Shown piece after piece: positions 10,269-60,700 of a stretch of 64,000 bases of DNA. The DNA comes from a virus. The position numbers and the translations under genes were made by a program. Under the pieces are notes generated by a model, which worked only from the letters and a program-made list of their open reading frames with translations, made no database searches and was not told the DNA's origin. Numbering within the stretch: the first letter of the stretch is position 1; each line of letters opens with the position of its first letter. The stretch covers positions 7,682 to 71,681 of the IMG/VR virus record IMGVR_UViG_3300010413_000019; one strand, given 5' to 3'.

Positions 10269-10518
10269 AATTACAGTACAAATTACAGTACAAAATCGAG
10301 CTTAAAAAAATATGGCCCTATACAGTGGATTGAGTGGTGGACTGAGGACCCACCACACCACTATTTCTTAAAGTCCGATAAAGTCCGAAAACTAAGTCCC
10401 CATAGACATTTACCCCGCATTTATAATCCAACGTAGTCCAGCTTAATCCGGATGAATCCAGAAATAATTACAGTACATATTGCAGTATAAAAGTTTTATG
10501 CCGTATAATTACAGTATA
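10269..10518. mobile_element. attP-like site: integrase arm-type repeats and ~10-bp-periodic accessory-factor repeats
   Basis: AATTACAGTAYA at 10269, 10281, 10466 and 10507, plus a variant TATTGCAGTATA at 10478. AAGTCC x3 at 10371-10399 and a(a/g)tcc every 10 nt at 10425-10460. Lies immediately upstream of the integrase. Confidence 0.7.
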
Positions 10519-10535
10519 AAACTTGGAGGTGTAGC

Positions 10536-11759
10536 ATGGGTCGCACAACAAAACCTCTCAGCGATGCGGAGGTCCGCAAAGCAAAATCCCTCGAAAAGAT
10601 GTATAAGCTCTTTGACGGAGCGGGGCTCTATCTCGAGGTGAAGACAAATGGCCGTAAGGTATGGCGTACCGACTTCCGATGGGAAGGCAAGACCAAATCA
10701 TACACGATCGGAGACTATCCGACAGTGACTCTCTCTTCGGCCCGTATAACGTCCCAGGAGGTCCGTGAGGATGCCAGGAATGGCATTGATCCAGTACAGA
10801 AGAGAAAAGGCTCTGAGGGCTCTGAGAATGCTGTATCCATACAGACCTTTAAACAGGTTGGAGATGAGTTCATGGAACTCAAATCATACACGTACAGTCT
10901 GTCACACTACATGAAGCAGCACGGCCGGTTGAACAACTACGTCTACCCCTACATCGGATCCAGGGATATCAGGGAGATCACCAAGCAGGACATCATTGAT
11001 CTGATCAAGAATGTCCAGAAGGTAGAGACTAAGACCACCCGGCAGACTCAGAAGCATGAGACAGCCAAGAGAGTCTTTCAGTTGATCTCACAGATCTACC
11101 AGTACGCGGTGCACCATGACATCGTCATTGATGACATCCCCCGGAGGATAGAGTTCAGTTCAGTCATCCCCAGGATCACCCCGCAGAAGCTAAAGGCGAT
11201 CGTTGAACTCAACGGGGTCAGGATGATGTACGGGATGCTCTCGGAGTACCAGGGAGACTTCACAACGAGGAACGCATTGAAGTTCCTGGCTCTATCTGCA
11301 CTGCGGCCGGGGAACATCCGGAACATGAAGTGGGAGTACATCGACTTCCAGAATGATGTGGTCAACTTCCCAGGGGAAGCTATGAAGATGAAGGAGTCAT
11401 ACAGACTCCCTCTCACTTCCACACTGATCCAGTTGATCGATGAGATGAAACCCCTCACCCGGTACCATTCCGAGTATGTCTTCTGCTCGCCTATCGCTCC
11501 GAGCAAGCCGATGTCCGAGAACACTCTGAACTACGCCCATAAAAGAATTGGGATCGCAGACCATAATGCCCACGGCTGGAGAAGCTCGTTCTCAACCCTC
11601 TGTTATGAGAAGCAGAAGGATCACGGCTTCGGAGCTGAAGTAATAGAGAGCCAGTTGGCACACTCACTGGGGAATGCGGTGAAGACTGCCTATCTCAGGA
11701 GTGATTTCATCGTTGAGAGGCAGCTGCTGCTCCGATGGTGGGAGAAACTGATCACGTAA
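10536..11759 (+). CDS. int: tyrosine integrase, P4/IntA type with N-terminal arm-binding domain
   Basis: PLSDAEVRKAK...KLFDGAGLYL arm domain; catalytic residues R (ALRPG), K (MKMK), HGWR, LAH, AY; GGAGG RBS. Confidence 0.95.
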   Translation: MGRTTKPLSDAEVRKAKSLEKMYKLFDGAGLYLEVKTNGRKVWRTDFRWEGKTKSYTIGDYPTVTLSSARITSQEVREDARNGIDPVQKRKGSEGSENAVSIQTFKQVGDEFMELKSYTYSLSHYMKQHGRLNNYVYPYIGSRDIREITKQDIIDLIKNVQKVETKTTRQTQKHETAKRVFQLISQIYQYAVHHDIVIDDIPRRIEFSSVIPRITPQKLKAIVELNGVRMMYGMLSEYQGDFTTRNALKFLALSALRPGNIRNMKWEYIDFQNDVVNFPGEAMKMKESYRLPLTSTLIQLIDEMKPLTRYHSEYVFCSPIAPSKPMSENTLNYAHKRIGIADHNAHGWRSSFSTLCYEKQKDHGFGAEVIESQLAHSLGNAVKTAYLRSDFIVERQLLLRWWEKLIT

Positions 11760-20939: not shown

Positions 20940-22004
20940 TTATGCCGCGTATTGAGCGTAGTCAGTATAGACTGTTTCCATCGGCTCACAGACCAGGATG
21001 TAATCACCGTTGTCATAGACAATACGTTGATCATCACTGAACTTGATCTGGCTCATACCGAAGCCTGTAATATCTTTGTACTCTGTACCTGCCTCATCTT
21101 TTTGGGCATAATTGATATAGAGGTTGCGGCGATGACTTGGTTTGTGGATCACATTTTCTGTGATATCCATGTGTTCACCGGTCTCTTTATCGATAAGGGC
21201 ACTGATCAGGATCTTCTCTTCAGACTCGCGGATGAAGCCGATGTTCAGGTCTTCAGCGAGTTCTTCGACATCTCCCCCATAGCGCATGTATTCATCTACG
21301 ATTGCTTTGAGGATATCAAAGCTGAAGGTGAGCATACCGGAGCTCATTTTGACGATGGCAGCAGTTGTATCCGCGTCAACACCGACACTTTCACAGTACT
21401 CACGTGTAGTCTCGCTGTCAAGCTTGTCATAACGGAAGTGATAGAAGATACGGCCTGGACGCTTGAGCATATAGTCGTTGATCATGTGCTCCTTGTTCTC
21501 TGTCAGGATCACCAGGCGTTTCTGCTTGCTGAGACCATCGAACATAGTCAGAAGACCGTTCTGCTGATCATCTTCATCGGTGATCTGGTAAGTTTTACCG
21601 AACTCATCGAAGATAAGTACACACTCACCGATAGAGTCGATGAAGCTTGTGAAATCATCACCATTGAATGATTCATTGATAGTGATTACGGGAAGCCCTT
21701 GGTCGATCATACGGTTAGCGATGACAGTGCTCAGCATTGTCTTACCCGAACCTTTGGTCCCAGTAAGAAGGATCCCTGTTGAGTTCTCACGAGATTCGTA
21801 TGTGCTGATCACTTTTTCAGCTCTACGGTTGATTGAACCATACAGCTCTTTTGGCGTTTCGAAACGGTCTTTGACCGCTGTAAGGTACATGCCAAACATG
21901 TTCACGCCGACTGTATATACCTTTGCCGGCAATCTGTCCAGTACTGTACTTTCATCAATATTACCGATCTTTACAGTGTTTCCACTTACAAAGAATTTTT
22001 TCAT
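20940..22004 (-). CDS. AAA+ ATPase
   Basis: GTKGSGKT, IFDEFGK, RPGRI. Confidence 0.88.
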   Translation of the reverse strand: MKKFFVSGNTVKIGNIDESTVLDRLPAKVYTVGVNMFGMYLTAVKDRFETPKELYGSINRRAEKVISTYESRENSTGILLTGTKGSGKTMLSTVIANRMIDQGLPVITINESFNGDDFTSFIDSIGECVLIFDEFGKTYQITDEDDQQNGLLTMFDGLSKQKRLVILTENKEHMINDYMLKRPGRIFYHFRYDKLDSETTREYCESVGVDADTTAAIVKMSSGMLTFSFDILKAIVDEYMRYGGDVEELAEDLNIGFIRESEEKILISALIDKETGEHMDITENVIHKPSHRRNLYINYAQKDEAGTEYKDITGFGMSQIKFSDDQRIVYDNGDYILVCEPMETVYTDYAQYAA

Positions 22005-22041
22005 AGATACCCTCTTTTAATTTTGGTTTGGTTTGACAGCT

Positions 22042-22233
22042 TTACGCTGCCAGTGCTCTTTTAGCTGCACGTTTACGTGCTCCGCGGCCTACTTTGTTCT
22101 TTGGTTCTGAACGGACCCAAGTACCTACCGATGCAATGATAGGTTTATCCAACGTACCAGCATTTTTAAAGTGTGGTTTGACTACCTTGTAGCCCATAGC
22201 CGCTGCGTATTTTTCATACTGTTTCAGATTCAT
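22042..22233 (-). CDS. small basic hypothetical protein
   Basis: Likely start MNLKQYEK after AAGGG RBS. Confidence 0.5.
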   Translation of the reverse strand: MNLKQYEKYAAAMGYKVVKPHFKNAGTLDKPIIASVGTWVRSEPKNKVGRGARKRAAKRALAA

Positions 22234-22275
22234 GATTTCCCTTTTGTTGATGGTGGTCGTAGACCATATTTGTGG

Positions 22276-22351
22276 TGGCCAATGCGGGTGGACTCGAACC
22301 ACCAACCTTCGGATTTGGAATCCGGTGCTCTACCAGTTGAGCTACGCAAAG
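22276..22351 (-). tRNA. tRNA-Trp (CCA), atypical
   Basis: CTTTGCG-TA-GCTC-AACTGGTA-GAGC-A-CCGGA-TTCCAAA-TCCGA-AGGTT-GGTGG-TTCGAGT-CCACC-CGCATTG-G-CCA. Has a C27.A43 mismatch and two U.U pairs in the acceptor stem. Confidence 0.9.
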
Positions 22352-22401
22352 ATTTTGAAGGCCCCTATCTCTTCAGTGAGAACCACTTCAGGGCCTATGT
22401 T

Positions 22402-22496
22402 CACCATCCCGGACTCGAACCGGTGACGCCCTAACGGGATAAGTCATAACCCCGATGTTGACTTTTTTGAGCCGCTGTCCATACAGCTTATGGTGC
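22402..22496 (-). ncRNA. tRNA-like RNA or degenerate tRNA
   Basis: CACCAT/ATGGTG closing stem, D-like hairpin GCTG-TATGGA-CAGC, T arm CCGG-TTCGAGT-CCGG; no canonical anticodon arm. Confidence 0.45.
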
Positions 22497-22775
22497 ATAC
22501 TAAGACTTGGTTCCCAATTTCTACCGTGCCGCTTGGGGCGTCTCTTGTAGTTCCAAGTCTCATACGATTCGTATTGTTGTCTGTACCATGCCCGGTACAG
22601 TGGGTTTGGAGTATTAATGAATTTTACATTTCGAGGCTGATCCACCCCTACTGGCCGAGCTTAATCGGAGTCCTAGTTAACCACTCAAAGTTAGGACTGC
22701 ATACTTACCTCCAATGAGATAACTATGCAATATAAGATTGATTGTGTATTTTCCAGAGCAGAGAGGGGATCCTCT

Positions 22776-24197
22776 CTACTTCTTGACTGATAGGTCAAGA
22801 TCAAGGTCTTTGGCAGCCTTGAGGCCCATCATAGTGAGCATAGTGTTGGCATAAGATGCACCTCCGCCGACTGAACCCTTGTCCCCACCGCCGATAACGG
22901 TAGCAGGTACATTGATTTTAGCCATAGCATCGGCACGGTATTTCTCAGCCTGGAGCCATGTATCAAGCTTTTGCTGCAGGGCGTTGTCCGCCTGCAGGAT
23001 CACACGTTTTTTGTGTGCCTGAGCATCAGCAAGGGCTTTGATTTTCTTGGCTTCGATAAGAGAGCGCTCATAGCGTTCCTGCTCAGCTTTCTTCTCTAGT
23101 TTTGCAACTTCGAGGTTCTTCTGGGCTTCGATGGTTTGCTTTTTCTTTTCAGTCTCAGCGATCGTTGTCTCTTTGATCTGGTTCACAAGTTGCTTAGCTT
23201 CAGCCTCGGCTACGAGTTTTTGACCGTTTGCCTTGGCAGCTTCAGCTTCCAATAGGGATTTACGGCGATCGTTCTCTGCAAGTGCAGCAGCTGCTTCCGC
23301 ATCACGTTGTTTACCGATCAGGGTACGGACCTTTTCTTCTGGGTTCACGTATGTGACGCGGGCAGTAACGACTTTCAGGTTGTAGTTCTCGATATCATCA
23401 AGACCTTGACGCACCGGTTGGCCGTTCTTATCCATAACAAGTTTGACAACTTCATTGATCTGATCAGATTGCTCTGTCTTGGATCCATCACGGTTAATGA
23501 TCTCACCATCGACTACCATCTTGTTGCCCTGGCGTGCACCAGTGCTGTTTTGAACTTCCTGTGTCACTTGAGTCTTATACAGACCGTTCATGAACTGGTC
23601 AGAGAAGTATTCATCGAAGTCTGAACCACGTTTAGTGATGTACTCTTGGATCGACATCAGACGAGCTGAGTTGATGGCTGCAGAGTAGAAAGTAGACTTG
23701 AGCAGGTTGTTGACAAGAGCTTCATCCGATCCGAACTCTTTATGGATCTTCAGCATCCCGTCACGACTTGTAGGCAGTTCCACACGGGCGATACCGTAGA
23801 AGTCTGCTTTCGCTGCATCAGAGAAGCGGATAGTCGGAGATGCGATATGATCAGCAGTTGATACCCGCTCTTCGTTACCGCCATCTTGTCCCGCACGTTC
23901 GCCAGTGAACATAGGAGTAGACACGGCTACGACTTTGTCATATTCATACACATTACCGAGAGCGCTTAACTTAATACCTGGGTCGGTGATAACAGATAAA
24001 TGCCCTGTAGGGTACTGCACAACGTAGTTCTTATCTGAATCGGCAATGAACACGATCGAAGTGATCATAAACAGTGCACCGATTGAGATACCGATTATTT
24101 TGAATGTCTTTTTGTATGCTTCACTGATAAAAGAAATCAGTGGGATAACAAATACCGCTAAAGCAATAACGATAAGACCAAAAATAAATGTTCCCAT
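22776..24197 (-). CDS. SPFH/band-7 (flotillin-like) membrane protein
   Basis: Two N-terminal TM helices, SPFH-like core, long Ala/Glu coiled coil; start MGTF at 24197 after AAGGA. Confidence 0.85.
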   Translation of the reverse strand: MGTFIFGLIVIALAVFVIPLISFISEAYKKTFKIIGISIGALFMITSIVFIADSDKNYVVQYPTGHLSVITDPGIKLSALGNVYEYDKVVAVSTPMFTGERAGQDGGNEERVSTADHIASPTIRFSDAAKADFYGIARVELPTSRDGMLKIHKEFGSDEALVNNLLKSTFYSAAINSARLMSIQEYITKRGSDFDEYFSDQFMNGLYKTQVTQEVQNSTGARQGNKMVVDGEIINRDGSKTEQSDQINEVVKLVMDKNGQPVRQGLDDIENYNLKVVTARVTYVNPEEKVRTLIGKQRDAEAAAALAENDRRKSLLEAEAAKANGQKLVAEAEAKQLVNQIKETTIAETEKKKQTIEAQKNLEVAKLEKKAEQERYERSLIEAKKIKALADAQAHKKRVILQADNALQQKLDTWLQAEKYRADAMAKINVPATVIGGGDKGSVGGGASYANTMLTMMGLKAAKDLDLDLSVKK

Positions 24198-24224
24198 TTT
24201 TTTCCTTGGGTGTTGGGTTTGTTT

Positions 24225-25065
24225 AACCCCGGAGTGATCAGCGTGGATCCTCACACACCGGGTTGATTCCGACCTGCGGTATTGACTTGCATCGAAACAG
24301 ATTGGTCATCTGCATTAGGTTCAAGTGGGTTTCCCCTCCCTGATACAAGCGGTGCATTAAACCGGCAGGAACCAGAAGAGTTCTCCCTCCTTTACCATTC
24401 AGAGGGCTAGATTCGTAGTTGTCTTTGCCCGTTGGCTACGTCCACAACTATCTCGATCTATCGGTTTTAAAAACGGGTGGATTAATAGTTACCACCATTA
24501 CCCATGTCTCGGACGCATGGTTGACCACAACTGCCTATCGAGTTGCCAGACTAAGGAGTTGGTAAGGCTCCAAGGAACACACCGCACCTGTGGCGGATAC
24601 ACCTTGCTATCGTACATAGCAAGTCCAGTTAAGCAGCTTCATACATGTACGACATTTGGCTGCTAGATGTGCTCACTGGAACCTTATGGCGCCCGCACAA
24701 GGGTTTGAACCTCGTGCCTATCGGTAGCGTGGTCGATAGGATTGTCGAGCCTCTTCGGAAGAGCTACGCTGCCCCTATTCCAAGGGATGCTCTCTACGAC
24801 AACAACGCAAACGTGGCAATACCGTTCCGATTCAGATTGATCAACATCTTTCACGTATTAAGCTACCACTGGGATTGTTGAGCCGTCCTACTATACTCTA
24901 CGGGCATATACATACTCCCGGTAACCGACCGGGCTTGGTTCATTTGATATCGTTCAATAGAGGTACCTTACCAATAACTAAAACGTCCTATCTATCCTCA
25001 AGGAAGGGTGTTGGTCCGAAGACCTCAAAGGCTGGTAAGACCTCTATGAACCTGGGTCACCAGTC
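24225..25065 (-). ncRNA. large, densely structured non-coding RNA region (~850 nt)
   Basis: No minus-strand ORF of 60 aa or more; more than 15 hairpins and long-range stems, including a C(UUCG)G loop and an embedded tRNA-like 3' end. Confidence 0.65.
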
Positions 25066-25080
25066 AGGCTCATAGCGACC

Positions 25081-25449
25081 TTACAGGCCACATATAAGTG
25101 ACAGAGATCCCCTTTCAGTGATCTTGATCTGCCACAGTGCTTTTGCGTACCCCATCATAAAGATGAGTTGTTTCTCCGACTTATGCACATACTTGGGGTT
25201 AACTGAGTAAACCCGTACAACATAGTCGTTCTCACGGAGAATAACGCGCTCTTGTTTGCTAAACCAGGCGCGCAGCTGTCTCTTGCTCTTGAATCCAAAG
25301 AAATAGCGGTAAGCATCGGCACTCTCCAAGATATCTTCGAAGTCTTCCCCGAAAGTTGGGTGTTCGGCGTCTGCATGATTGAAGAGCGCAACTTTATCGG
25401 CATAAGGACCATATCCATCTGTCCTATGTTCGACACGGTAGATCAGCAT
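25081..25449 (-). CDS. hypothetical protein
   Basis: 122 aa (YRVEH...GPY...HP...FGF...WF), typical small phage gene, with RBS. Confidence 0.7.
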   Translation of the reverse strand: MLIYRVEHRTDGYGPYADKVALFNHADAEHPTFGEDFEDILESADAYRYFFGFKSKRQLRAWFSKQERVILRENDYVVRVYSVNPKYVHKSEKQLIFMMGYAKALWQIKITERGSLSLICGL

Positions 25450-25596
25450 TCAAATCCTTTGTTTAGACTCTCTCGAGATGGCTACTATCTAGCATTCGCA
25501 AGAAGGCCCAAGCCAAAGGCTCGGGTGAGGAGAAAATTTGGAGAGTTCTGAGGAGAAATTGTGGTGAACAGGTTGTTTATTCCCTGTTGCATTTAA

Positions 25597-25612
25597 GGGC
25601 GCGGATGCGCCC
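25597..25612 (-). promoter_or_regulatory. hairpin promoter candidate (template-strand GGGCGC-GGAT-GCGCCC)
   Basis: One of seven C-GGAT-G hairpins; preceded by TGCATTTAA at the same spacing as the 25736 copy. Confidence 0.65.
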
Positions 25613-25735
25613 AGAGGTTATTTAACAGTCCGCTGGACTGCTACCGAAACCTGATTTCATAGGGCACCTCCTAGAAAAAAAATCGTGGACAAGCCTCACA
25701 CCCTCTTTTGGGTGCTATCTTGTCCTGCATTTAAA

Positions 25736-25749
25736 CCCACGGATGTGGG
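25736..25749 (-). promoter_or_regulatory. hairpin promoter candidate (CCCAC-GGAT-GTGGG)
   Basis: Same motif and spacing as the 25597 copy. Confidence 0.65.
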
Positions 25750-25751
25750 CG

Positions 25752-25964
25752 TTAGTCGCCGTGTAGGTGTGCATAATCATCATCATTCTGATAATCTTTG
25801 TTAAGTTCCATCTCTTGGATGCCGAACCACTCGTATTCCCAAGCTGTTCGGCCTTCATGATCGATGGAGGCTACTGCGGCCTCTCGGGTGTCGTAGACAC
25901 CTACGATGTAACCGCCCTGTTGGTCGTACTCATTGACAAATCGTAGTACCGCGAATAACTGCAT
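25752..25964 (-). CDS. hypothetical protein
   Basis: 70 aa, AAGGAG RBS; NEYDQ.G.Y..GV motif. Confidence 0.7.
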   Translation of the reverse strand: MQLFAVLRFVNEYDQQGGYIVGVYDTREAAVASIDHEGRTAWEYEWFGIQEMELNKDYQNDDDYAHLHGD

Positions 25965-25973
25965 TGGTTCTCC

Positions 25974-27002
25974 TTATGATAACATGTATTCACTCTTACG
26001 GATGTCCTCCGCAAGGTCATAACTGAACTTCTTCAACTGAACATCTGTACCGGTAATCTCGCTGATGATATCGCTGAGCAGGTTGCTCTCTGCAATTTCA
26101 GCCAAGATGTCACGGTAGAAGTCCATCACCTTTGGCATGTGGTTCGGATGGCATGTGAAGGCATCATGGATATGTGCTACTTCAAAGTCTGCACGTCTGA
26201 TAATCTCACGTGCGACATACCCGTCAATGCTGTGGATGATGTTGGGCGCCAAGGATGTTTTACGGTCACTTGGTTGGTTCGGGTAGAAGCGGTATGTGAA
26301 CTGCATGTGATTGAGTTCATCCACTTCAATACGTGCATCGACTTGGTCGACTACGTTTACCTTTGCCACGTGACCGTCTGGCAATGTCCACTGGTGGAAG
26401 TATGCGAACGGGTCCCAAGCATTGTTGATGACCTGCATGACAGCCTCTGCACCCGTGAACTTCTCCATGAGAATCTCGTAGAACATGTTAAGCTCCATCG
26501 TATCCTCACCAAGTAGCTCTTTAGGCTTGGCCTTAGAGTTATAGTAGTGAGTCATGATAGGCTTTTTGATGTAGCTACGGGTGAACATAGGGTTCTCGCC
26601 GGCTTTAGCGATAAGTGCGTCCGATACGGCTGTATAGGCGTCATTACGCTGGCCGTTGTTGATAAGGTTTACAGCTTCGGCTGTCTTCTTACACCCTGAG
26701 AGTGCGGCCATGATTTGTAGCCCACTTGCAGTGGCATCCATGAACATGTTGTGGTTGATAGGCTTACCGTCTACCGCATCGGCAAAGGCATAGCAGGCCT
26801 TGCGGAACATCAAAGGCTCTTCAGCCTGAGATGCCCACTCATCAAGATTGTTCAGGATATCTGTTTGGTTCTGGTTTACCCACTGGATGCGGGTTTCGAA
26901 CAACTCTTTGTCAAGGCCGTAGGTATTGGCCATATCGATTTTCAACATGTCGAAGCCTGTGAAGCGCTCCGCGAATGAGATAGGTTTTGGTATTGCTGAC
27001 AT
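25974..27002 (-). CDS. RNA polymerase II subunit 2 (N4 gp16-like, T7-type catalytic half)
   Basis: DATASGLQ (motif A), R..IKKPIMTHYY (motif B), PNIIHSIDG, IHDAF (motif C). Confidence 0.95.
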   Translation of the reverse strand: MSAIPKPISFAERFTGFDMLKIDMANTYGLDKELFETRIQWVNQNQTDILNNLDEWASQAEEPLMFRKACYAFADAVDGKPINHNMFMDATASGLQIMAALSGCKKTAEAVNLINNGQRNDAYTAVSDALIAKAGENPMFTRSYIKKPIMTHYYNSKAKPKELLGEDTMELNMFYEILMEKFTGAEAVMQVINNAWDPFAYFHQWTLPDGHVAKVNVVDQVDARIEVDELNHMQFTYRFYPNQPSDRKTSLAPNIIHSIDGYVAREIIRRADFEVAHIHDAFTCHPNHMPKVMDFYRDILAEIAESNLLSDIISEITGTDVQLKKFSYDLAEDIRKSEYMLS

Positions 27003-27164
27003 AGGTGGTGACCTCTTTCTTTTGTTGGTTCGGGTTAGCTAAAGATATAAGCAACTACGATGAGACTATAGATGTCGAACATAAATCCGAACAGCTTGGT
27101 CAAATCATCCATTGGATTACCATCAACATATTTGTTGATGAGAGACAATATGATGGTCATCATG

Positions 27165-28073
27165 CTATGCTACCCCTGTAAGTATCTCTGCTTTGGCAAA
27201 CTGTAGGATTGCCTTCTTGTACTCCGAGCCCTGAAGGTTGATATCATAGCCCTGTGAGTACTGGCGCCCGCGCTTGTCGAACTTCCACACGAAATAGAAC
27301 TGGTTCTCATTGTCCAGTTCATACTGGTATACACGGTCTGATTGAGCACACCGCGCATTGTGCTGTTCGATTTTACGCAGTTCGACAGGATCCGTGATGT
27401 CTCCAGTCTCCTTGGGAAGTTCCTTCTCCGCGAGCATACATGTATTGAGTTCCCAAGCAATGCTTTGGAGTTTGTTCAACACATCAAGACTCTGTTTCAT
27501 ACCGTGGTAGTTCTGCTCGCCGAGGATGGCTGAGCTGTCTTCGAGAAGTAGTCCCCCATGTCTGTTGTCTGTCCAAGGACGTGGTTCACACGTCATCGGT
27601 GGCAGGTACATAGCCATGTGGATTTTCTGAAGAGTCTCATCTTCGAGTTTGAAGAATGGTTTGATGACTGCCGTATCATGGTCGTGCTCCGGACTGAAGG
27701 CATGAAGTATCTCATACACTCCGGCATCCTTGCACACTGCAAGTATCTCTGCACCACACTTGACTGCATCAAGTTGCTCGAGACCGATACGGTGACCTAA
27801 CATCGTGGCTACCGCCTGGATAGGCGTGACACTGTCTAACGTACTGAGGACCGAATAGAACAGCTCAACAGCTATCTCTTCTGGTTCCATAGATATCTTG
27901 GCGATACGCTCATCCTTGGATTTGAAATACTCCTTACCAAGGTACTCACGCACTGCAACTACACATTGCTGATAGTTCGGGTTACCGTTAAGGTCTCCGA
28001 TGTCCTGTTTAATCCACACTGGGATATTCTTTTTACTGTAAGTCTCTTCGACTGTTAATTGAGTTTGATACAT
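27165..28073 (-). CDS. RNA polymerase II subunit 1 (N4 gp15-like)
   Basis: LPPM.CEP, FDKRGRQYSQGY.INLQG..YKKA. Confidence 0.93.
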   Translation of the reverse strand: MYQTQLTVEETYSKKNIPVWIKQDIGDLNGNPNYQQCVVAVREYLGKEYFKSKDERIAKISMEPEEIAVELFYSVLSTLDSVTPIQAVATMLGHRIGLEQLDAVKCGAEILAVCKDAGVYEILHAFSPEHDHDTAVIKPFFKLEDETLQKIHMAMYLPPMTCEPRPWTDNRHGGLLLEDSSAILGEQNYHGMKQSLDVLNKLQSIAWELNTCMLAEKELPKETGDITDPVELRKIEQHNARCAQSDRVYQYELDNENQFYFVWKFDKRGRQYSQGYDINLQGSEYKKAILQFAKAEILTGVA

Positions 28074-30038: not shown

Positions 30039-30113
30039 TGCGCTGTAGCTCAGAGGCAGAGCAGCTCCCTGTTAAGGAGATGGTCGGAGGTTCGACCCCT
30101 CCCAGTGCAGCCA
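30039..30113 (+). tRNA. tRNA-Asn (GTT)
   Basis: TGCGCTG/CAGTGCA acceptor, CT-GTT-AA loop, GGAGG-TTCGACC-CCTCC T arm, encoded CCA. Confidence 0.92.
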
Positions 30114-30345: not shown

Positions 30346-30420
30346 TGCGTCTTAGCCAAGTGGTAAGGCAGCTGGTTTTGGTCCAGTCATTCCCAGGTTC
30401 GATCCCTGGAGACGCATCCA
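30346..30420 (+). tRNA. tRNA-Gln (TTG)
   Basis: TGCGTCT/AGACGCA acceptor, TT-TTG-GT loop, CCAGG-TTCGATC-CCTGG T arm, CCA. Confidence 0.92.
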
Positions 30421-31780: not shown

Positions 31781-33359
31781 ACCGTTAAAGAAGACGGTTG
31801 AGGATTGGCTGAACGAGGTCATCTACGACAATGAAGATGATACCTATATCCCCTCCGACTTTGCCCTGGAGTTTGTCAACTTCATCAAACTGGTGAACGG
31901 ATCGGAGGGCGAGGAGAACAAGACTCCGGTACTGCACTATAAGATGCTTGACCAGGTGGCCGGGCCGCGCCAGAATATATGTAACATGGTACACCGGGGC
32001 GGGGCCAAGACCACGATCATGGGCGAGTACCTATTCTTGTACCTTGCTGTCTACGGTTCGCTGCCAGGGTTTGGCGAGGTGCCGCTGGCGATCTATGTCT
32101 CTGACTCCATCGAGAATGGTGTCAAGAATATGCGTAAGAACTTGGAGTACCGCTGGGAGAACAGTGAGTTCCTCCGCCACTATGTTCCGAAGATCCGTTT
32201 CACCGATGTCCGTTGGGAGTTTACCAACATCGATGGTAAGACATTGATCGTAAAGGGGTACGGTGCGAAGACCGGCGTGCGTGGGGCCAAGGAGATGGGT
32301 AAACGTCCGTTTCTGGCCGTACTTGATGACTTGATCTCGGATGAGGATGCAAGATCAGCTACAGTCATCGCAAGTATCGAGGATACTGTCTATAAAGCGA
32401 TCGACTATGCGCTACACCCTACAAGAAGAAAGATCATCTGGTCGGGTACTCCGTTCAACTCGAGGGACCCTCTCTACAAAGCTATCGAGTCCGGCGCCTG
32501 GTATGTCAATGTCTACCCAGTGTGTGAGCAGTTCCCCTGCAGCCGTGAAGATTTCCGCGGATCCTGGGAAGACCGTTTCACCTATGACTTTGTCAAGGCC
32601 CAGTACGACAAGGCGGTCAAGGCCGGGAAGGTCGATACCTTCAACCAGGAGCTTATGCTGCGGATCATGTCTGATGAGGATCGTCTGATCCTTGATACGG
32701 ATATCCCGGAGTATAGCCGGGCGCTCGCCATGCGGAACAAGGGGCGCTACAACTTCTACATCACGACCGACTTTGCGACCAGTGAGAAGACCAGTGCCGA
32801 CTACTCGGTGATCAGTGTGTGGGCCTACAACAACAACGGCGATTGGCTATGGGTGGACGGCATCTGTAAACGGCAGCTGATGGACAAGAACATCGATGAC
32901 CTATTCCGTTTGGTTCAAGAGTATGATCCTCAGGCGGTCGGCATCGAGGTCACAGGGCAGCAGGGCGGTTTCATTCAATGGATCCAGAACGAGATGATCA
33001 ACCGTAATATCTACTTCTCTCTGGCAAGTGAGAACAACAGCTCGAATCCGGGGATCCGGCCGAACACCAATAAGATGGTGCGCTTCAATGTTGTTGTCCC
33101 TTGGTTCAAGGCCAAGAAGATCTGGTTGCCAAACGATGTTAACAACGCGGCTCTTACAGAGATGTGGGCCGAACTGCGTCTGGCCTCGGCCGGCGGGTTC
33201 AAGAGTAAGCATGATGATGCGATCGATACGATCAGTATGCTGGCATCCCTCAACCCGTGGAAACCTAGCGAAGAAGCGGTCTACCGTAACGAGAACAACA
33301 CGATGTGGGAAGACGACCTTGATGAGGAGGTGGGAGCCTACGCCTCATATATAGTCTAA
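31773..33359 (+). CDS. terL: terminase large subunit (N4 gp68-like)
   Basis: HRGGAKTT Walker A, AVLDD Walker B, GTP coupling motif, nuclease TTDFA...DYS...HDDAID. Confidence 0.95.
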   Translation: MSEPLKKTVEDWLNEVIYDNEDDTYIPSDFALEFVNFIKLVNGSEGEENKTPVLHYKMLDQVAGPRQNICNMVHRGGAKTTIMGEYLFLYLAVYGSLPGFGEVPLAIYVSDSIENGVKNMRKNLEYRWENSEFLRHYVPKIRFTDVRWEFTNIDGKTLIVKGYGAKTGVRGAKEMGKRPFLAVLDDLISDEDARSATVIASIEDTVYKAIDYALHPTRRKIIWSGTPFNSRDPLYKAIESGAWYVNVYPVCEQFPCSREDFRGSWEDRFTYDFVKAQYDKAVKAGKVDTFNQELMLRIMSDEDRLILDTDIPEYSRALAMRNKGRYNFYITTDFATSEKTSADYSVISVWAYNNNGDWLWVDGICKRQLMDKNIDDLFRLVQEYDPQAVGIEVTGQQGGFIQWIQNEMINRNIYFSLASENNSSNPGIRPNTNKMVRFNVVVPWFKAKKIWLPNDVNNAALTEMWAELRLASAGGFKSKHDDAIDTISMLASLNPWKPSEEAVYRNENNTMWEDDLDEEVGAYASYIV

Positions 33360-54698: not shown

Positions 54699-54776
54699 TC
54701 AGCATCTTCTAAATAACAAGATTTAACATAATCTAACATGGTATAATTCTATTAATAGACTAATAGGATTGTACTC

Positions 54777-57700
54777 ATGCCAGACCCTTTTCTACCAGAA
54801 CTCGATATCACTGTAGCCAAGGCTATTGCCGATGCCGATCAGATGCTTAAAAACAGCGGTTTTGATGTCCCTTCGATCGCTACTCCCAGTCCTGTCATCC
54901 AAGATGGCGATACCATTGATAACAAGCGTATCATGGGTTACGACACAGCCGAGTCCTTCAAATCTGATAAGGCCCAGCGTATCCTAGACCAGTACGGTCT
55001 GGACCTTGATCAACAGAAGGCTCTCGGTCTTGCCGGTAAGGATCACCTGAAGGAACTGCTCAAGAACCCGGAATACTCCCAGTTTGAAGACAAGGGTTTC
55101 GGTGCGATGGGTCGTAGACTCACGCAGAACGATCCACTTGCAGAGAAGATGATCTCTGACGGGTTCGCGGTTCCTACCGATCGCTATGATCCAAAGAAGC
55201 AGGAACTCTATCGTAGAGCGGTGGAGAAAGAGACCAACCTATTTGGAACCAACCGGGAAGAGATGGAATCCCTTCGTCAATACAACATTGACCGACAGAA
55301 GCCGGGATACCTATCACGTACAGGTGAGTCGGTCGATGCATTCCAGTCCGGTGCGGTCCAAGCGGTAGGTAAGCTCGGGGACTTCGTAACAGATGTCGTG
55401 GCATGGGGAGCTGATAAGACTGGTTCCAAGAAGTTTGCCAAGTTCATGGATGAATCCTTCGAAAAGATGTCATCCAGTGAGTACGCCGATAAAGTGACCG
55501 GGTTCGATAGACGTGAGGCCAACTTTGCTATGGCCGAAGCCACACACCAGTGGAAGACCGGTGACTACGCAGGAGCGCTGAAGACAGCCCTGACAACTCC
55601 TGAGGTTGTTGCCGAGTCACTCCCTCTCATGATAGAGATGATGGTAGGTGGCGGTAAAGCCAAAGAGGGTCTTACCGGTGTCAAGCGTCTGGGCAGTTAC
55701 CTCAAAGCCAACTCCGGTCTAGCAGCGGTAATCGGTCAAGAGACCAATGCCCAAGCAGAAGAGTACGAGACTCTCCACGGTGAGAAACCAAATGCTGTCA
55801 AGCTGGCTCAGATGACTGCGATGAACACTGTGATGTTCAGCCTTGACCGTCTCACATTCAAACAGATCACCGGACTAAAAGACGGACTCAAGAGTGCAGC
55901 TCAAGCATTGCCCGACTCCACCAAGATGGAGATCATGAAGAAGGCGATAGCTCTAACTGCATCTACTGGTTCGGCTATGGCAAAAGAGGGTGCACAGGAG
56001 TATGTCCAGACATGGGGTGAGATCCTCAATGTCCAAGCCGGTACAGACCTCGACTCATACATGAAAGTCCTCAACGATGAGGAAGCACAGCGTGAGGCTC
56101 TTACTGGAGGTATCATGGGTGCCGGAGCCGGTGGTCAGATACATCTCGGAGCCAAGGCAGTCAAAGGTACTGTTGATACCGTATCCCAGAAGGTCGATGA
56201 AACTGTCAAGGAGATCGAGAACACTGATAAGCAAGTGACCGGTACGGCGCCAAGCTATGACCCGGTAACCTCTATGACTCCATTCCTTGATGCAGACCCA
56301 AAGACAATGTCATCTGTAGAGAAGACACAGTTTGTAGCAGCAGGTCAAGAGGAGCTGGGTAAGGCACTCGACTACTACGATACCATCGTTGATGATAACC
56401 CGGAGCTTGCCCAGGAGATACTGACCAAAGCCCAGGACCTGATGAAGGTCACCCAGGATATCGCCGAAGTAGACAATGTGACCAAAGAGGCAGTAGCACA
56501 GGATGACAAAGAGGCTGTAGATCGTACCTTTGGTTCTATCCAGTTGAACATGAACGTGCCGGTCGATACCGCGGAGACAATGCTCAACAGTAGCCACCTC
56601 GATGAATCGCAGAAGGCATCACTCAGCAACTACATCGAGCGCAAGAACATCTACGAGCGACTCAAAGGTATGGGTGCTGTAAGTGAAGAAGTCATGAGTG
56701 GTAAAGACAGCCACTTCAAAGGACTTGACCGTTTCATCCCGGATATCCAGAACGCACTCAAGTATTCGGACGGACCGGAGAAGGCTGCATCACTGGCCAA
56801 CAAGTTTGCCACGTTTGCCGAGCAGCGTGTCCGTAAGTACAACGCAGTCAAAGACCTGTATGAAAAATCCAAGACAGAAGGACCACAAGTATATGAGCAA
56901 AAAGGCTTCAAACCTCTCGTTATCTCGGCTGTTGCAGACACTGCGCAAGGCATCAAGAACAGTTCTAAACTGGTTGAGCAGATCAAGCTCGAGATGGAAT
57001 ACTCTCAATCGATTAAAAAAGAGATTGACCGAATTGTACCGGATGCGTCAAAAGCTGGTGCGGGAGATAACCAACCGCATCTTCCAGAAGTAGACTTTGC
57101 CGGTCTTGACTCTACCAAAGAGTACAAGGCTGCAGATATCCGCGGCACCGTAGAAGATCTACTCCGCAACCCTTCCAAGTATCCTGACAGTCCTACCAAG
57201 ACCCAGTTCATCCAGAACAACAGTAAAGTGATCAATGAGATCGCCCGCGATATGAAGAAGTCACCTGAAGCCGATACGACCGGAAACCCTGCGAAGGAGC
57301 CTGCGACTGAAGCAAAGGGTGAGACGGGAGTGGAGGCGAAGGCAGAGACCAAAAAAGAAGCCTCTAAGAAGCCCGTAGAGCCTCAGAAAGCTCCACAGGA
57401 GAAAATGGTCGAGGAGAAAGTTTCTGAGCCTTCTGAGCCTGTCTCTGAGCCGGAGGTTAAGGCTAAGCCTTCCGTTGGAAGTAAGCTCCTGACAAACACG
57501 ATGAAGAATACCGGTGTGAAGGGTGGAGCAGAGATTGCCATCACCAACTGGTTCGAACCAAAGAACAGGGAGTCCAAGTTTGCCGAGGGTGATAACATCT
57601 TTGCCGTTGACTCTCTGGATCCGCAGTTGCAGAACACAATGCTCAAACAGTTCAACATGTTCAAGAACACCTTCAACAACCGTGTTGCTGCGGTGCTTCA

Positions 57701-60700
57701 TCCAAAGGCCGGCAATAACAAGGGCACGTTTATCGGTACCCAGTTCTTCAACCAGAAGTCTGATGCAGTGGCCAGTGCCCTTACGCACTCTCCGATGTCC
57801 CTACTTGTCAAATCAAACGGTGACCCAAAGGTAGGTGCCAACAGATACTTCGATGACGAGTTGATCGGAGCCATGATGCTGAGCTCATTTGATTGGTTGG
57901 CTCAGAACTACCAGTCTACGCTGATCAAGACACCTGAGGATATCAACAGATTCCTCGGCCGCGAAGAGGGGACACAGGTTACTGACCGTGAGATGGACCT
58001 GCTTGCTGAGAAGGGTACCTACAAGAACCTGATTGTCAGTGAACTCGGTAATGCTATCTATAAACAGCTCGGTATGAAATTGAAAGAGGGTGTGGATGGC
58101 AATGCCGAGGGAAGACTTATCAATGACCTGGGCGCCAATGCATTGCGTGTTATGGAGGAGATGGGACTTCTTGTTGAGCACAGCGTTCCGACCAAAGAGC
58201 TGACTGAGCTGAAGAAGGGTACCGCCTTTGACATAGATGAAGCTACGGCCGAGAAGAAGGTTACCTTTGTCCGTGTCGCATCTACGGGAGACCTTACCAC
58301 ACTCAAAGAGGTTCCCACAACCAGAGCCAAAAGTTTCATTGACTTCTACAAAGGGAACGGCAAACAGATCGCCGAGTCATTCGGTGTTGAGTCCTTCACG
58401 ACCGGTCCGACCTTCGAGAAGCCGACAAAGGTTGTCAAGCAGGTTCAGCGCTCTACACTGGGCGTGCCCCAGAAGAACCGTGATGCTATCAAGAAGCAGC
58501 AGGAGACACCTTGGATCGTAAGAACCAAGAACATGGAAGTACTTCGTAAGCTTCCGGCCAAGATGGTCTATAAGATCGCTGGTTATGTGGAAGACCTGGA
58601 CACAGTCCATGCCGCGCGTATCAAAGCGGTCAAGGGTAAGAACGGTGCTATCGAACGTGAGTATGAGCAGTTGATGCAGTTCGCTGAAGGCGCGGAGGCG
58701 GACAAGCCGTTCTACTTCAACTATGTCTTCTGGAAGAATGGGCGTTACGGTGTTGACAGCAATACAGTGAACCCTCAGTCCAAGAAGCTGCACCGCCACA
58801 TGATCGGTATCAAGAGCCATGATATCACCATCAAGCCCGGCAGCAAAGAACTCGAGCAGTTCAAACTCGCTGTCTCTATGGCATTCGGAGGAAAGGTCGA
58901 TAAGTGGTCAAAGCAGCGCTCACTCGATCACTTCGATACAGTGGTGAACGACCCGGATGTGCAGGAGGCACTTGGTGTTGTTGATATGATGCTCAAGAGT
59001 GACAAAGAGCTGAGCAGCAAAGAGCTTGATCCGATCTTCAAAGCGGTGGACGGCCACGAAGAGTTCCATACTCTCGATGCACTGATCGCCCTGCACGGGT
59101 GGGCCGTTGAAGGTAAGAACGGGACTGAACCGTTCAAGACCGGGCTGGCAATGGAGACCGATGCGGTAACCAGTGGTTTCATTCTGACTCTTATGCAGGC
59201 ACCGCTGGTCAACGATGTTATGGGTTGGCTCAACAAAGGCGGTATCTATAAGGGGCGCGACTTCGACAACTTCGGTGACTGGTCGGAGACTCCGGGACAC
59301 CTTGACAGTTACCAGACCCTGGCGAAGAACGTCCATGAGAGAATTGCGAACCACCCTAAGATGGAGATCCTCAAAGATCTCGTTGGTTCCCTCGCAGATG
59401 AGAAAGGTATTACCGGCTTCGGTCGTAGTTTTATGAAGGCACCGTTCATGACTTTCATCTATGGTTCGAGTATCAACAATATCGTTGAAAGCATCGGTGA
59501 GAACGCGCTGGAAGATCTCTATAAAAAGATCGAGAAAGTTGTCATGGAGAAAGACCGTGAGGGTCTGATCTCTATCCAGAAGCAGTTGAGAGACCTGGGG
59601 ATCCCGGCAGTGATCTACAAGGATCCGCTCAAGCGCATGGATAAGAGGTCCGAAGAGATGTATAAGGACATCATCAAAGAGACCTACGGCAAGGGTGTGA
59701 AAGAGTATCTCGAGACCGAGTTCGAAGGTGTGGTCAACTACCGCAAGCAGACCAACAAGGCATTCAAGGTTATGTTCGAAGCCTTCGATGTGGTCTTCAA
59801 AAAAGAGGTGGCAAAAGCCAAGGAAGCAAAGGGTGGATTGGAGCTGACCAGGGGTGAGATCGATGATATCGTCAAATCACTCCACAGCATGTTCCCCGGT
59901 ATCAAGCCGATCTTCGGTAAGAGTGCTGATGAGAAAGTCTCGGTCATCGACAGGTTCAAGGACCTTAACATCGAGGATCCAAGCAGAAAAGTAGAGAGCC
60001 AGTTTGTCAGCCGTATCAAACCGAAGCAGGGTGATGTGCTACCGCAGCAGTCTACCTCATGGTCATACGACTACTCGTTCCAGGCGTCTGCCGCAGCCGG
60101 CCCGGTTGTCACGATCCACTATATCGATGGTTCGATCATCACAAGTCCGCTGATGGATTTCGATTCACTGGGTGTGCATGATGCGGTGAACCACAGCCTG
60201 AGCAATGTCGTGGAAGGTACGCGCTCTTATAACCGTTCAACCCTGAGGACATCTGCCTCATACAGTGTCTCGGCTGAAGTACTAAAAGCACTGAAGGCAA
60301 GTCTCGGTTCGCTGTCTACAGATGAGATGAAGACCCTCAACAAAAGTCTCGGCAAACTGAGTGCAGCGGAGGTCTACAAGAACTATATGGACATGGCCAA
60401 AGAGATCCAGCAGAAGCGTAAAGAGATCTTCTCCGGTGTCATGCGTGTGGCTCACTCCTCCCACCCAGACACTATGGTCGAGTTTGACTTTGCCGGCGAC
60501 AAGAAGTTCAAAGATGTGGATAGCACGGTCAATGAGGAACCAGCTCCGGCTGTACCGAAGGTAGAGACCGACCTTGATGCCAAGGACACAGTGGTCTTCA
60601 GTTCTAACGGCCGGGACTTCAACAGAGATGAGTTCAAGGCTGAGTTCGAGAACGAGGTGCAGTCAGAAAATGTGCTGAACATCTTCGAAGCGCTGGATGC

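What the first reader, a model, noticed from the sequence alone, without database searches (positions are those of the whole stretch)
24687..24905. 219-nt RNA capped by a canonical tRNA acceptor/T-arm but with ~180 nt of foreign structure inside
Seen on the minus strand: 5' GCCCGTA pairs with TGCGGGC (7 bp), followed by discriminator G and an encoded CCA, with T arm CGAGG-TTCAAAC-CCTTG. The inside has TCAACA/TGTTGA, TTGTCG/CGACAA enclosing CTCTT/AAGAG, and CCTATCG/CGATAGG, whose loop (ACGCT) could pair with AGCGT. It lacks the G3.U70 pair and A73 of tmRNA. Inference: RNase P could excise an aminoacylatable tRNA-like RNA (non-alanyl tmRNA analogue, intron-containing tRNA, or decoy).
Basis: partly seen in the sequence, partly recalled or inferred. 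Interest (0 to 1): 0.75.

Follow-up and report, generated by a model that had tools for sequence, protein, structure and literature searches.

The report
Orphan tRNA-like gene in a phage
A marine-sediment N4-like phage carries a single 219-base stretch whose two ends look like a transfer RNA while its middle does not, most likely a tRNA-derived RNA or a decayed tRNA gene rather than a new class of molecule.

Summary
The tRNA-like ends are real and at the stated coordinates (minus strand, 24905 to 24687). They comprise a 7/7 end pairing, a canonical T arm, G73 and an encoded CCA, and U lies at -1. They sit in an 826-nt non-coding gap of a 71.7-kb N4-like phage whose three true tRNAs also encode CCA. 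A T arm followed by CCA and closed by a 5' strand occurred in 0 of 40 shuffled windows. I also found a D-arm-like hairpin next to the 5' strand if the acceptor/T helix is split 5/7, as the folding ensemble prefers.

The "~180 nt of foreign structure" is not supported. Only the 7-bp hairpin before the T arm is robust.

It is not a tRNA, tmRNA or intron-containing tRNA by ARAGORN, by Rfam, or by an exhaustive single-deletion scan (0 of 1575). No homologue was found, no RNA data exist, and the nearest relatives have no tRNAs. Best reading: a tRNA-derived, non-decoding tRNA-like RNA of the phage T4 RNAC kind. A dead tRNA relic is a close rival. Interest is modest.

The parts
24899..24905 (-). 5' acceptor strand GCCCGTA. 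Positions 1-5 pair with 24691-24695. Positions 6-7 (T,A) either complete a 7-bp acceptor stem or serve as a U8/A9-like spacer in the 5/7 register.
   Evidence: sequence; 7/7 closure, 1 G-T; pairs 1-4 P=1.00, pair 5 P=0.45, pairs 6-7 P=0.13 and 0.07 in the isolated 219-mer; U at -1.
24880..24898 (-). D-arm-like hairpin: GAGT (24898-24895) / GCTC (24883-24880), with an 11-nt loop ATAGTAGGACG that starts with A and contains GG.
   Evidence: Read. It forms in the MFE of the variant that keeps 1-27 plus 166-219. Its ensemble probability in the full RNA is only 0.16-0.17. In the alternative 7/5 numbering, A14, G18 and G19 fall in canonical register but no D stem forms.
24741..24879 (-). 139-nt interior with no structure above chance.
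   Evidence: z values and pair probabilities; repeat D6 is one of 8 comparable direct repeats in the 826-nt gap. One search gives the frame coordinates; no coding signal.
24717..24740 (-). 7-bp hairpin CCTATCG / CGATAGG with a 10-nt loop, placed where a tRNA has its anticodon arm or long variable arm. It is 2 nt (7/5 register) or 0 nt (5/7 register) from the T stem.
   Evidence: (P 0.80-0.99 for six of seven pairs, with and without flanks).
24698..24716 (-). T arm: CGAGG-TTCAAAC-CCTTG, extendable by C-G and A-T pairs (24716/24696 and 24715/24697) to a 7-bp stem.
   Evidence: (5-bp stem P 0.87-0.99; the two extra pairs P 0.87-0.99).
24687..24697 (-). 3' acceptor strand TGCGGGC, discriminator G (24690) and encoded CCA (24689-24687).
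24255..25080 (-). 826-nt non-coding gap that holds the element. It lies between a 122-aa ORF (25081-25449, phrog_1106) and a 492-aa SPFH/band-7 ORF (22776-24254), both on the minus strand.
   Evidence: no open frame with positive codon score; largest internal uncalled gap.

Best explanation
The locus is tRNA-derived. It most likely specifies a non-decoding tRNA-like RNA.

Anatomy. A tRNA 'top half' closes a roughly 139-nt, essentially unstructured insert. The top half is a 12-bp acceptor/T coaxial helix with a canonical T loop, a D-arm-like hairpin with GG, G73 and an encoded CCA. A 7-bp/10-nt-loop hairpin stands in place of a normal anticodon arm.

Inferred mechanism. It is transcribed with the minus-strand genes downstream of the phage's RNA polymerase II genes. 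Host RNase P cuts between 24906 (U, -1) and 24905 (G, +1), because the minihelix, T loop and GCCA are its recognition elements. The 3' end is trimmed to the encoded CCA at 24687. This would leave a 219-nt RNA that presents a tRNA-like acceptor end but cannot read a codon.

In kind it works like the phage T4 stable RNA RNAC (species 1 RNA), whose function is also unknown.

Shown: the sequence features and their non-random nature. Inferred: transcription, processing, stability and any function.
For: Ends beyond chance and in the right context:
- 5 T-arm hairpins in the window, of which 3 are true tRNAs, against 0.365 expected.
- Closure plus CCA in 0 of 40 shuffles.
- The element lies in a gap that shows no coding signal, on the strand of both flanking genes. 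By a crude call only about 14% of the window is non-coding.
- All 3 true tRNAs of this phage encode NCCA, and 2 of the 3 have U at -1, as the candidate does.

Top-half features kept together:
- In the isolated RNA the end pairing has P=1.00 for pairs 1-4, the T stem 0.87-0.94 and the hairpin about 0.81 for six of its seven pairs.
- The 5/7 split favoured by the ensemble frees T,A as a U8/A9-like spacer and allows a 4-bp D stem with a GG-containing loop.

It is not simply a recently interrupted tRNA: 0 of 1575 single-deletion variants are called tRNA, although the same scan-1005 of 1575 variants of a true tRNA carrying the same insert.

Precedent:
- T4 rnaC has a canonical T arm, an imperfect acceptor-like closure and foreign structure inside.
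- RNAC is expressed and its role is unknown (passages read in PMC9697503 and PMC3014915).
- RNAC has no Rfam family either; its best hit is tRNA-Sec at 17.5 bits, E 0.92.
Against: - Singleton. There is no homologue in 19 related loci (RNAP2 44-52% identical), and three exact-pattern scans of IMG/VR found 0. There is therefore no covariation test.
- No expression data.
- The interior is no more structured than shuffles, unlike T4 RNAC (z -4.57).
- The D stem has only P about 0.17 in the full RNA.
- With 30-100 nt flanks the end pairing is predicted at P<=0.12. The true tRNAs also drop, to 0.00-0.34 in 8 of 9 flank tests; tRNA-Asn with 100-nt flanks stays at 0.85-0.88. So this test discriminates only weakly.
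- The 5' partner by itself is only weakly significant, and U8 is absent in the 7/5 register.
- This phage's tRNA-Trp has two mismatches in its acceptor stem, and its nearest relatives have no tRNAs at all (0 of 3 records searched). That fits relaxed selection on a recently acquired tRNA set.
- No sigma-70-like promoter or clear terminator brackets it.
Confidence: 0.4

Rival explanations
1. Dead relic. A phage tRNA gene was broken by an insertion or rearrangement between its D arm and anticodon arm and is now decaying. Any transcript is a by-product with no function.
For: - The interior looks like random sequence.
- A 12/13 direct repeat lies at the borders of the insert (24872-24884 and 24739-24751). 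This could be the scar of an insertion or duplication.
- No canonical anticodon arm exists.
- tRNA-Trp in the same phage has a flawed acceptor stem.
- Relatives lack tRNAs (0 of 3 records), so the tRNA set is recent and dispensable.
- The phage has several other non-coding gaps of 300 nt or more.
Against: - Removing any single segment does not restore a tRNA (0 of 1575), so the break is not young.
- Yet every top-half determinant (7/7 pairing, perfect T-loop consensus, G53-C61, CCA, U at -1) is intact, which an old relic should not keep.
- The repeat is no better than 7 other direct repeats in the same gap.
Confidence: 0.3
2. Chance. The T-arm-like hairpin, CCA and complementary 7-mer are a coincidence in non-coding DNA.
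For: - A chance T arm does occur in this window, inside the terminase gene at 33100.
- 7/7 partners are easy to find; there are three within 500 nt.
- The scan as a whole read very many windows, so rare coincidences are expected somewhere.
- There is no fold-energy signal.
Against: - My own arithmetic gives a joint expectation of about 0.001-0.006 per window before asking for a non-coding location and the gene strand.
- 0 of 40 shuffles reproduce it.
- It occurs in a phage that has real CCA-encoding tRNAs.
- A D-arm-like hairpin with GG sits exactly beside the 5' strand.
Confidence: 0.15
3. tmRNA-like rescue RNA charged with an amino acid other than alanine. A tRNA-like domain is joined to an internal tag frame, 24790-24764, which reads ASLGIGAA-stop and is followed by a small hairpin.
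For: - A frame ending GCN-GCN-stop lies in the interior. By my estimate that is p about 0.04 for 219 nt, and I noticed it post hoc.
- The stop is followed at once by the CTCTT/AAGAG hairpin.
- The ends are tRNA-like and there is no anticodon arm.
- G73 plus a long hairpin before the T arm recalls serine identity (recalled knowledge, not tested).
Against: - No tmRNA family (standard, alpha, beta, cyano or mitochondrial) is hit at E<=10.
- ARAGORN -m gives 0 calls at the default, 90% and 80% thresholds. At 60% it makes 9 calls in 1.3 kb, one of which uses this 3' end with a different 5' strand and a different tag.
- C3-G70 and G73 replace G3:U70 and A73.
- No pseudoknot is supported, and that hairpin has P<=0.05.
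- No SmpB gene was seen among the 37 ORFs scanned with Pfam. Not all ORFs were scanned.
Confidence: 0.03
4. A functional tRNA interrupted by an intron that is spliced out.
For: The variant that keeps 1-27 plus 166-219 folds as a cloverleaf, with a 5-bp acceptor, D arm, 7-bp arm and 7-bp T arm.
Against: - ARAGORN -i gives nothing at its default threshold, and 0 of 1575 deletion variants are called.
- 101 of the 1575 variants fold to a three-branch shape, so the cloverleaf is not special.
- The arm has a 10-nt loop and no recognisable anticodon loop.
- The 138-139-nt insert is below the size of known self-splicing group I introns (recalled) and has no structure or Rfam intron hit.
- Its borders are direct repeats, not a bulge-helix-bulge.
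Confidence: 0.03
5. A copy of the 3' end of a host tRNA kept as the phage attachment site (attP) for the phage's integrase.
For: The phage encodes a tyrosine integrase with an Arm-DNA-bind_3 domain (10536-11759). By established knowledge, such integrases commonly use tRNA 3' ends.
Against: - The element is 13 kb from int.
- 5 of the 6 copies of the arm-type repeat TTRCAGTAYA in the window lie at 10271-10518, right upstream of int (0.39 expected). The att region is therefore there.
- A scan of 185,579 species genomes for this T loop plus 3' acceptor strand gave 25 places, none in a tRNA.
- An attP fragment does not need a matching 5' strand or a D arm.
Confidence: 0.03

Closest known systems
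Phage T4 RNAC (species 1 RNA, rnaC), a 139-nt stable RNA in the T4 tRNA cluster
   Same: - It is a phage-encoded, non-decoding RNA.
- It has a canonical T arm immediately followed by a 7-nt 3' strand that pairs imperfectly with the 5' end, and non-tRNA sequence in between.
- Its function is unknown (passages in PMC9697503 and PMC3014915).
- It is not covered by an Rfam family.
   Different: - There is no sequence similarity; the only shared words are 6-8 nt.
- RNAC is strongly structured (z -4.57) and the candidate is not (z -0.50).
- RNAC abuts tRNA genes, while the candidate is 2.3 kb from the nearest tRNA.
- The candidate encodes CCA and has a perfect 7/7 closure. The annotated RNAC does not end in CCA, and its closure has two U-U mismatches.
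tmRNA (SsrA) tRNA-like domain
   Same: An acceptor stem plus T arm joins the two ends of a longer RNA. There is no anticodon arm. There is an internal short frame ending Ala-Ala-stop.
   Different: - G3:U70 and A73 are absent.
- There is no hit to any tmRNA model or by ARAGORN -m.
- No supported pseudoknots.
- The candidate has a hairpin directly before the T arm where tmRNA has helix 2.
Ordinary phage tRNA genes and tRNA pseudogenes
   Same: T arm, acceptor pairing, discriminator and encoded CCA are like the three tRNAs of the same phage. There is a D-arm-like hairpin with GG.
   Different: - No 5-bp/7-nt anticodon arm.
- A 139-nt insert.
- Not detected by ARAGORN or RF00005 even at E<=10.
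- Not rescued by any single deletion.
tRNAs with non-7/5 acceptor/T partition (8/4 and 9/3 'novel cloverleaf' tRNAs; PMC5389517, search listing and start of abstract only)
   Same: The acceptor branch is 12 bp, divided other than 7/5. Here the ensemble prefers 5/7.
   Different: - The split goes in the opposite direction (shorter acceptor, longer T stem), and I know of no described example (recalled, not searched).
- Those are decoding tRNAs with normal anticodon arms.
Group I intron-containing tRNA genes of bacteria
   Same: The gene is longer than a tRNA and has tRNA ends.
   Different: - The insert lies after the D arm, not in the anticodon loop.
- It is too short and unstructured.
- No Rfam intron hit, and ARAGORN -i is negative.

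Membership tests
tRNA (RF00005 / ARAGORN) | Detected by the family model or finder | tested here: not met
   ARAGORN finds 3 tRNAs in the window and not this one. Rfam at gathering level gives the same 3. There is no RF00005 hit on it at E<=10.
tRNA (RF00005 / ARAGORN) | 7-bp acceptor stem, 5-bp T stem with a T-loop consensus, discriminator and CCA end | tested here: met
   The ensemble, however, prefers a 5/7 split of the same 12 bp.
tRNA (RF00005 / ARAGORN) | D arm two nucleotides after the acceptor stem | tested here: inconclusive
   A 4-bp stem with an 11-nt GG-containing loop exists only in the 5/7 register. Its P is about 0.17 in the full RNA. In the 7/5 register A14, G18 and G19 are in place, but there is no stem and position 8 is G.
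tRNA (RF00005 / ARAGORN) | 5-bp anticodon stem with a 7-nt loop | tested here: not met
   The only candidate arm is 7 bp with a 10-nt loop. 0 of 1575 deletion variants are accepted.
tmRNA | G3:U70 and A73 (alanine identity) | tested here: not met
   C3-G70 and G73.
tmRNA | Match to a tmRNA covariance model or ARAGORN tmRNA call | tested here: not met
   No hit at E<=10. ARAGORN -m gives nothing at the default, 90% and 80% thresholds.
tmRNA | Tag reading frame with resume codon, preceded by pseudoknot 1 | tested here: inconclusive
   A frame ending Ala-Ala-stop exists at 24790-24764, but it is a post-hoc find at p about 0.04. No pseudoknot could be evaluated.
Intron-containing tRNA (group I, anticodon loop) | tRNA restored when the intron is removed; group I core present | tested here: not met
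   The positive controls work.
T4 RNAC-type phage stable RNA | Sequence homology to rnaC | tested here: not met
   Only 6-8-nt word matches.
T4 RNAC-type phage stable RNA | Canonical T arm plus end-to-end acceptor-like pairing around non-tRNA sequence | tested here: met
   for rnaC; for the candidate.
T4 RNAC-type phage stable RNA | Accumulates as a discrete processed RNA | not testable with these tools
   No RNA run holds the sequence.
Large ornate phage RNAs (GOLLD, ROOL) and other Rfam families | Match to the family model | tested here: not met
   There is no such hit in 21900-25900 at E<=10. 7 hits are listed. Only the tRNA-Trp hit reaches its gathering score, and none overlaps 24687-24905.

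The most novel reading that the evidence does not exclude
The RNA is a processed, aminoacylatable tRNA mimic with an unprecedented 5/7 acceptor/T partition.

Either it is charged by a synthetase that ignores the anticodon and acts on the ribosome like a miniature non-alanyl tmRNA; G73 plus the long hairpin before the T arm would suggest serine, and the tag would be ASLGIGAA.

Or it serves the phage as a decoy that soaks up host defences aimed at tRNA acceptor ends.
Probability: 0.05. Interest if true: 0.75.

Novelty: new member of a known kind. Interest (0 to 1): 0.3.

Why it matters
If the RNA is made and processed, it would add a second kind of example, from an N4-like marine phage, to the old and still unexplained observation that phages encode tRNA-like stable RNAs that cannot decode (T4 RNAC and RNAD). 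It would also offer a natural RNA in which the 12-bp acceptor/T helix may be divided 5/7.

If it is a relic, it merely documents gain and decay of tRNA genes in a phage lineage whose relatives have none. As a singleton with no conservation or expression evidence, it cannot at present bear a stronger claim.

Tried and rejected
Homologues
- The flanking SPFH protein in IMG/VR gave 0 relatives.
- RNAP2 gave 10 loci in IMG/VR and 9 in metagenomes, all 44-52% identical.
- blastn and nhmmer of the gap against the 10 IMG/VR loci found only two chance words, and ARAGORN found 0 tRNAs in them.
- My closure scan over all 19 loci found nothing with CCA.
- Exact patterns of the 3' end, the 5' end and the hairpin/T arm in IMG/VR gave 0, 0 and 0.
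- blastn of 24200-25500 against 50,697 phage records gave no match.

Sequencing runs
- No RNA holder is listed.
- Two DNA holders from one marine-sediment study are listed, and one of them may be the source.
- Laying contigs gave one difference, A>G at 24961, outside the element. A second run covered only 25302-25449.
- This gave no variation usable for covariation.

Coding
- The three small ORFs over the element (24645-24881 +, 24875-25075 +, 24684-24854 -) have codon scores of -0.02, -0.28 and -0.16, against +0.19 to +0.51 for real genes.
- They have no PHROG hit better than E 0.099.

Split neighbouring gene
- The 122-aa ORF matches only profile positions 50-183 of 227 in phrog_1106.
- Its homologues are 141-159-aa proteins that align over almost all of it.
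- I dropped the idea of an intron in that gene.

Other rejected ideas
- attP: rejected.
- Repeats: no tandem repeat. No copy of any part of the gap elsewhere in the window beyond 14-nt words.
- Promoter and terminator scan: 0 promoter-like sites and 1 terminator-like site on the other strand at 25699, which is at shuffle level.
- Flank-dependent folding does not discriminate, because true tRNAs also lose their acceptor pairing in silico.

Not seen
- Supplementary tables of PMC10690425 (candidate structured RNAs in IMG/VR) and of PMC10654107 (N4-like genomes with integrases) could not be seen. They may list this contig or motif.

Full report
**Where it lies.**
- The window is bases 7682-71681 of a 71,681-base IMG/VR virus record, estimated 97% complete.
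- It is an N4-like phage. It has a giant open frame of more than 3,080 codons running off the window (54759-63998). It has the two genes of a split T7-like RNA polymerase (27165-28073 and 25974-27002, minus strand). It also has a family-A DNA polymerase, ThyX and terminase.
- The best cultured relatives are N4-like phages of Shigella, Salmonella and Pseudomonas, at only about 43% identity in the large RNAPII subunit.
- The finding sits on the minus strand in an 826-nt gap (24255-25080). The gap lies between a 122-aa ORF of PHROG 1106 and a 492-aa SPFH/band-7 ORF.
- No frame in the gap is both open and codon-biased like the phage's genes. It is the largest internal uncalled gap in the window.

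**The observation: the ends.**
- Read on the minus strand, the ends are exactly as described. GCCCGTA (24905-24899) pairs 7/7 with TGCGGGC (24697-24691), with one G-T pair.
- Immediately 5' of TGCGGGC lies a T arm, CGAGG-TTCAAAC-CCTTG. After it come G and CCA (24690-24687). The base before 24905 is T.
- A scan for closed T arms finds five in the window: the three real tRNAs, this one, and one inside the terminase gene. The expectation from shuffles is 0.365.
- Asking also for NCCA seven bases after the T arm and for a 7/7 partner upstream gave 0 of 40 shuffled windows.
- The three real tRNAs all encode NCCA.
- The ends are therefore very unlikely to be a coincidence in this genome. They lie in non-coding DNA on the strand of the neighbouring genes.
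- The 5' partner is the weakest part. Two other 7/7 partners with more G-T pairs lie within 500 nt (25088 and 24812).

**The observation: the interior.**
- The interior is a different matter. The whole RNA folds no better than its shuffles (z -0.50).
- With the acceptor and T arm enforced, the interior is slightly worse than its own shuffles (z +0.41; 65% of 300 shuffles fold at least as well).
- 120-nt sliding windows across 24710-24949 have z from +0.13 to +1.20.
The 7-bp hairpin CCTATCG/CGATAGG is stable, at 0.80-0.99 for six of its seven pairs.
- So "about 180 nt of foreign structure" reduces to one hairpin plus about 139 nt with no detectable structure.

**Additional anatomy.**
- The ensemble does not prefer the 7/5 division of the 12-bp acceptor/T helix. 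It prefers 5/7. Pairs 6-7 of the acceptor have P 0.13 and 0.07, whereas C-G and A-T pairs extending the T stem have P 0.87-0.99.
- In that register T6 and A7 become a U8/A9-like spacer. GAGT (24898-24895) can then pair with GCTC (24883-24880) around an 11-nt loop that starts with A and contains GG. That is a D-arm look-alike, although its probability in the full RNA is only about 0.17.
- In the 7/5 numbering, A14, G18 and G19 fall in canonical register but no D stem forms and position 8 is G.
- Either way the 5' 27 nt look tRNA-derived. This raises my confidence that the two ends belong together.

**What it is not: a tRNA, or a tRNA with one insertion.**
- ARAGORN and Rfam find only the three tRNAs.
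- At E<=10 nothing overlaps the element, either in 24400-25200 or in 21900-25900.
- ARAGORN with introns at its default threshold is negative.
- I removed every possible single segment so that 68-97 nt remained. None of the 1575 variants was called a tRNA, nor were the 1575 built on the alternative 5' strand at 25088.
- The same procedure on the phage's tRNA-Asn carrying 143 nt of this interior gave 403, 843 and 949 calls of 1575 with ARAGORN's -ss option, at insertion sites 17, 37 and 46 of the tRNA. Without -ss, the site-37 control gave 1005 of 1575.
- The negative result is therefore not due to a strict finder. It arises because the hairpin before the T arm is neither an anticodon arm (10-nt loop) nor an allowed variable arm.
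- 101 of the 1575 variants fold to a three-branch shape. The neat cloverleaf obtained by keeping 1-27 plus 166-219 is therefore not evidence of an intron.

**What it is not: a tmRNA.**
- Positions 3:70 and 73 are C-G and G.
- No tmRNA model is hit.
- ARAGORN -m is silent down to 80% of its threshold. At 60% it makes nine calls in 1.3 kb, which is noise.
- I noticed a frame ending Ala-Ala-stop (24790-24764) followed by a small hairpin. It is a post-hoc find at about p 0.04, and the hairpin has P<=0.05.

**What it is not: an attachment site.**
- The phage has a tyrosine integrase (10536-11759).
- Five of the six copies of an arm-type repeat lie directly upstream of that gene.
- The element is 13 kb away.
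- No tRNA in one genome from each of 185,579 species ends with this T loop and 3' strand (25 places matched, 0 in tRNAs).

**Relatives and expression.**
- No homologue was found. The nearest phages (44-52% in RNAP2; 19 loci) have nothing similar near their polymerase genes.
- Three of their records that could be searched whole have no tRNA at all (0 of 3; two further loci were not held).
- Three exact patterns are absent from IMG/VR.
- Two DNA runs of one study hold the sequence and none is RNA.

**Comparison with what is known.**
- The closest thing I could examine is T4 rnaC. It is a 139-nt stable RNA with a canonical T arm, then a 7-nt strand that pairs imperfectly with the 5' end, and foreign hairpins in between.
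- Passages of two papers say that RNAC and RNAD are expressed and that their roles are unknown.
- RNAC is not in Rfam; its best hit is tRNA-Sec at 17.5 bits. The absence of an Rfam hit therefore does not argue against this kind of RNA.
- The candidate differs from RNAC in four ways. It shares no sequence with it. It lacks a structured interior. It encodes CCA. It stands apart from the tRNA genes.

**Verdict.**
- The ends are real and tRNA-derived. The interior structure is not real.
- The intron-containing tRNA and tmRNA readings fail their tests.
- I favour a non-decoding tRNA-like RNA that RNase P and 3' trimming would release (confidence 0.40). All determinants of the tRNA top half are intact, although the body is beyond repair by any single deletion.
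- A dead relic (0.30) is nearly as good. This phage's tRNA-Trp already has two acceptor mismatches, and the tRNA set is a recent, dispensable acquisition.
- Chance stands at about 0.15.
- Interest is modest until a homologue or a transcript is found.

Noticed in passing
window 10271-11759: This N4-like phage carries a 407-aa tyrosine integrase (Arm-DNA-bind_3, Phage_int_M, Phage_integrase). It is the only plus-strand gene inside the minus-strand replication module. Five copies of TTRCAGTAYA lie in the 265 nt upstream, which is a likely attP with arm-type sites. Integrase-bearing N4-like genomes have been reported (passages of PMC10654107).
   Followed up: partly
window 22276-22351 (-): tRNA-Trp(CCA) has two T-T mismatches at acceptor positions 2:71 and 3:70. 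It is followed by CCACCA. It is either an odd or a decaying tRNA.
   Followed up: no
window 30039-30113 and 30346-30420 (+): tRNA-Asn and tRNA-Gln lie on the strand opposite to the surrounding minus-strand early genes. Both encode CCA.
   Followed up: no
G001-G003 (records behind L008, L007, L003): The nearest relatives that could be searched whole have no tRNA gene at all (0 of 3; one of them is 92% complete). The three tRNAs and the tRNA-like element are therefore specific to this lineage.
   Followed up: partly
window 25044-25075 (-): An 11-bp inverted repeat with a 10-nt loop follows the stop of the 122-aa ORF almost at once (pair I7). The surrounding 120-nt windows are the only ones in the gap with clearly negative fold z-scores (-2.4 on the minus strand, -3.3 on the plus strand). 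It may be a terminator or a processing hairpin.
   Followed up: no
window 27003-27164: A 162-nt spacer separates the two RNA polymerase II subunit genes (N4 gp15/gp16-like split). I did not examine it.
   Followed up: no
window 24961: This is the only difference between the window and the contig of run X1: A>G, 56 nt upstream of the element.
   Followed up: no
window 54759-63998 (+): An open frame of more than 3,080 codons runs off the window end. It is the expected N4-type virion RNA polymerase gene. I inferred this from size and context and did not search it.
   Followed up: no
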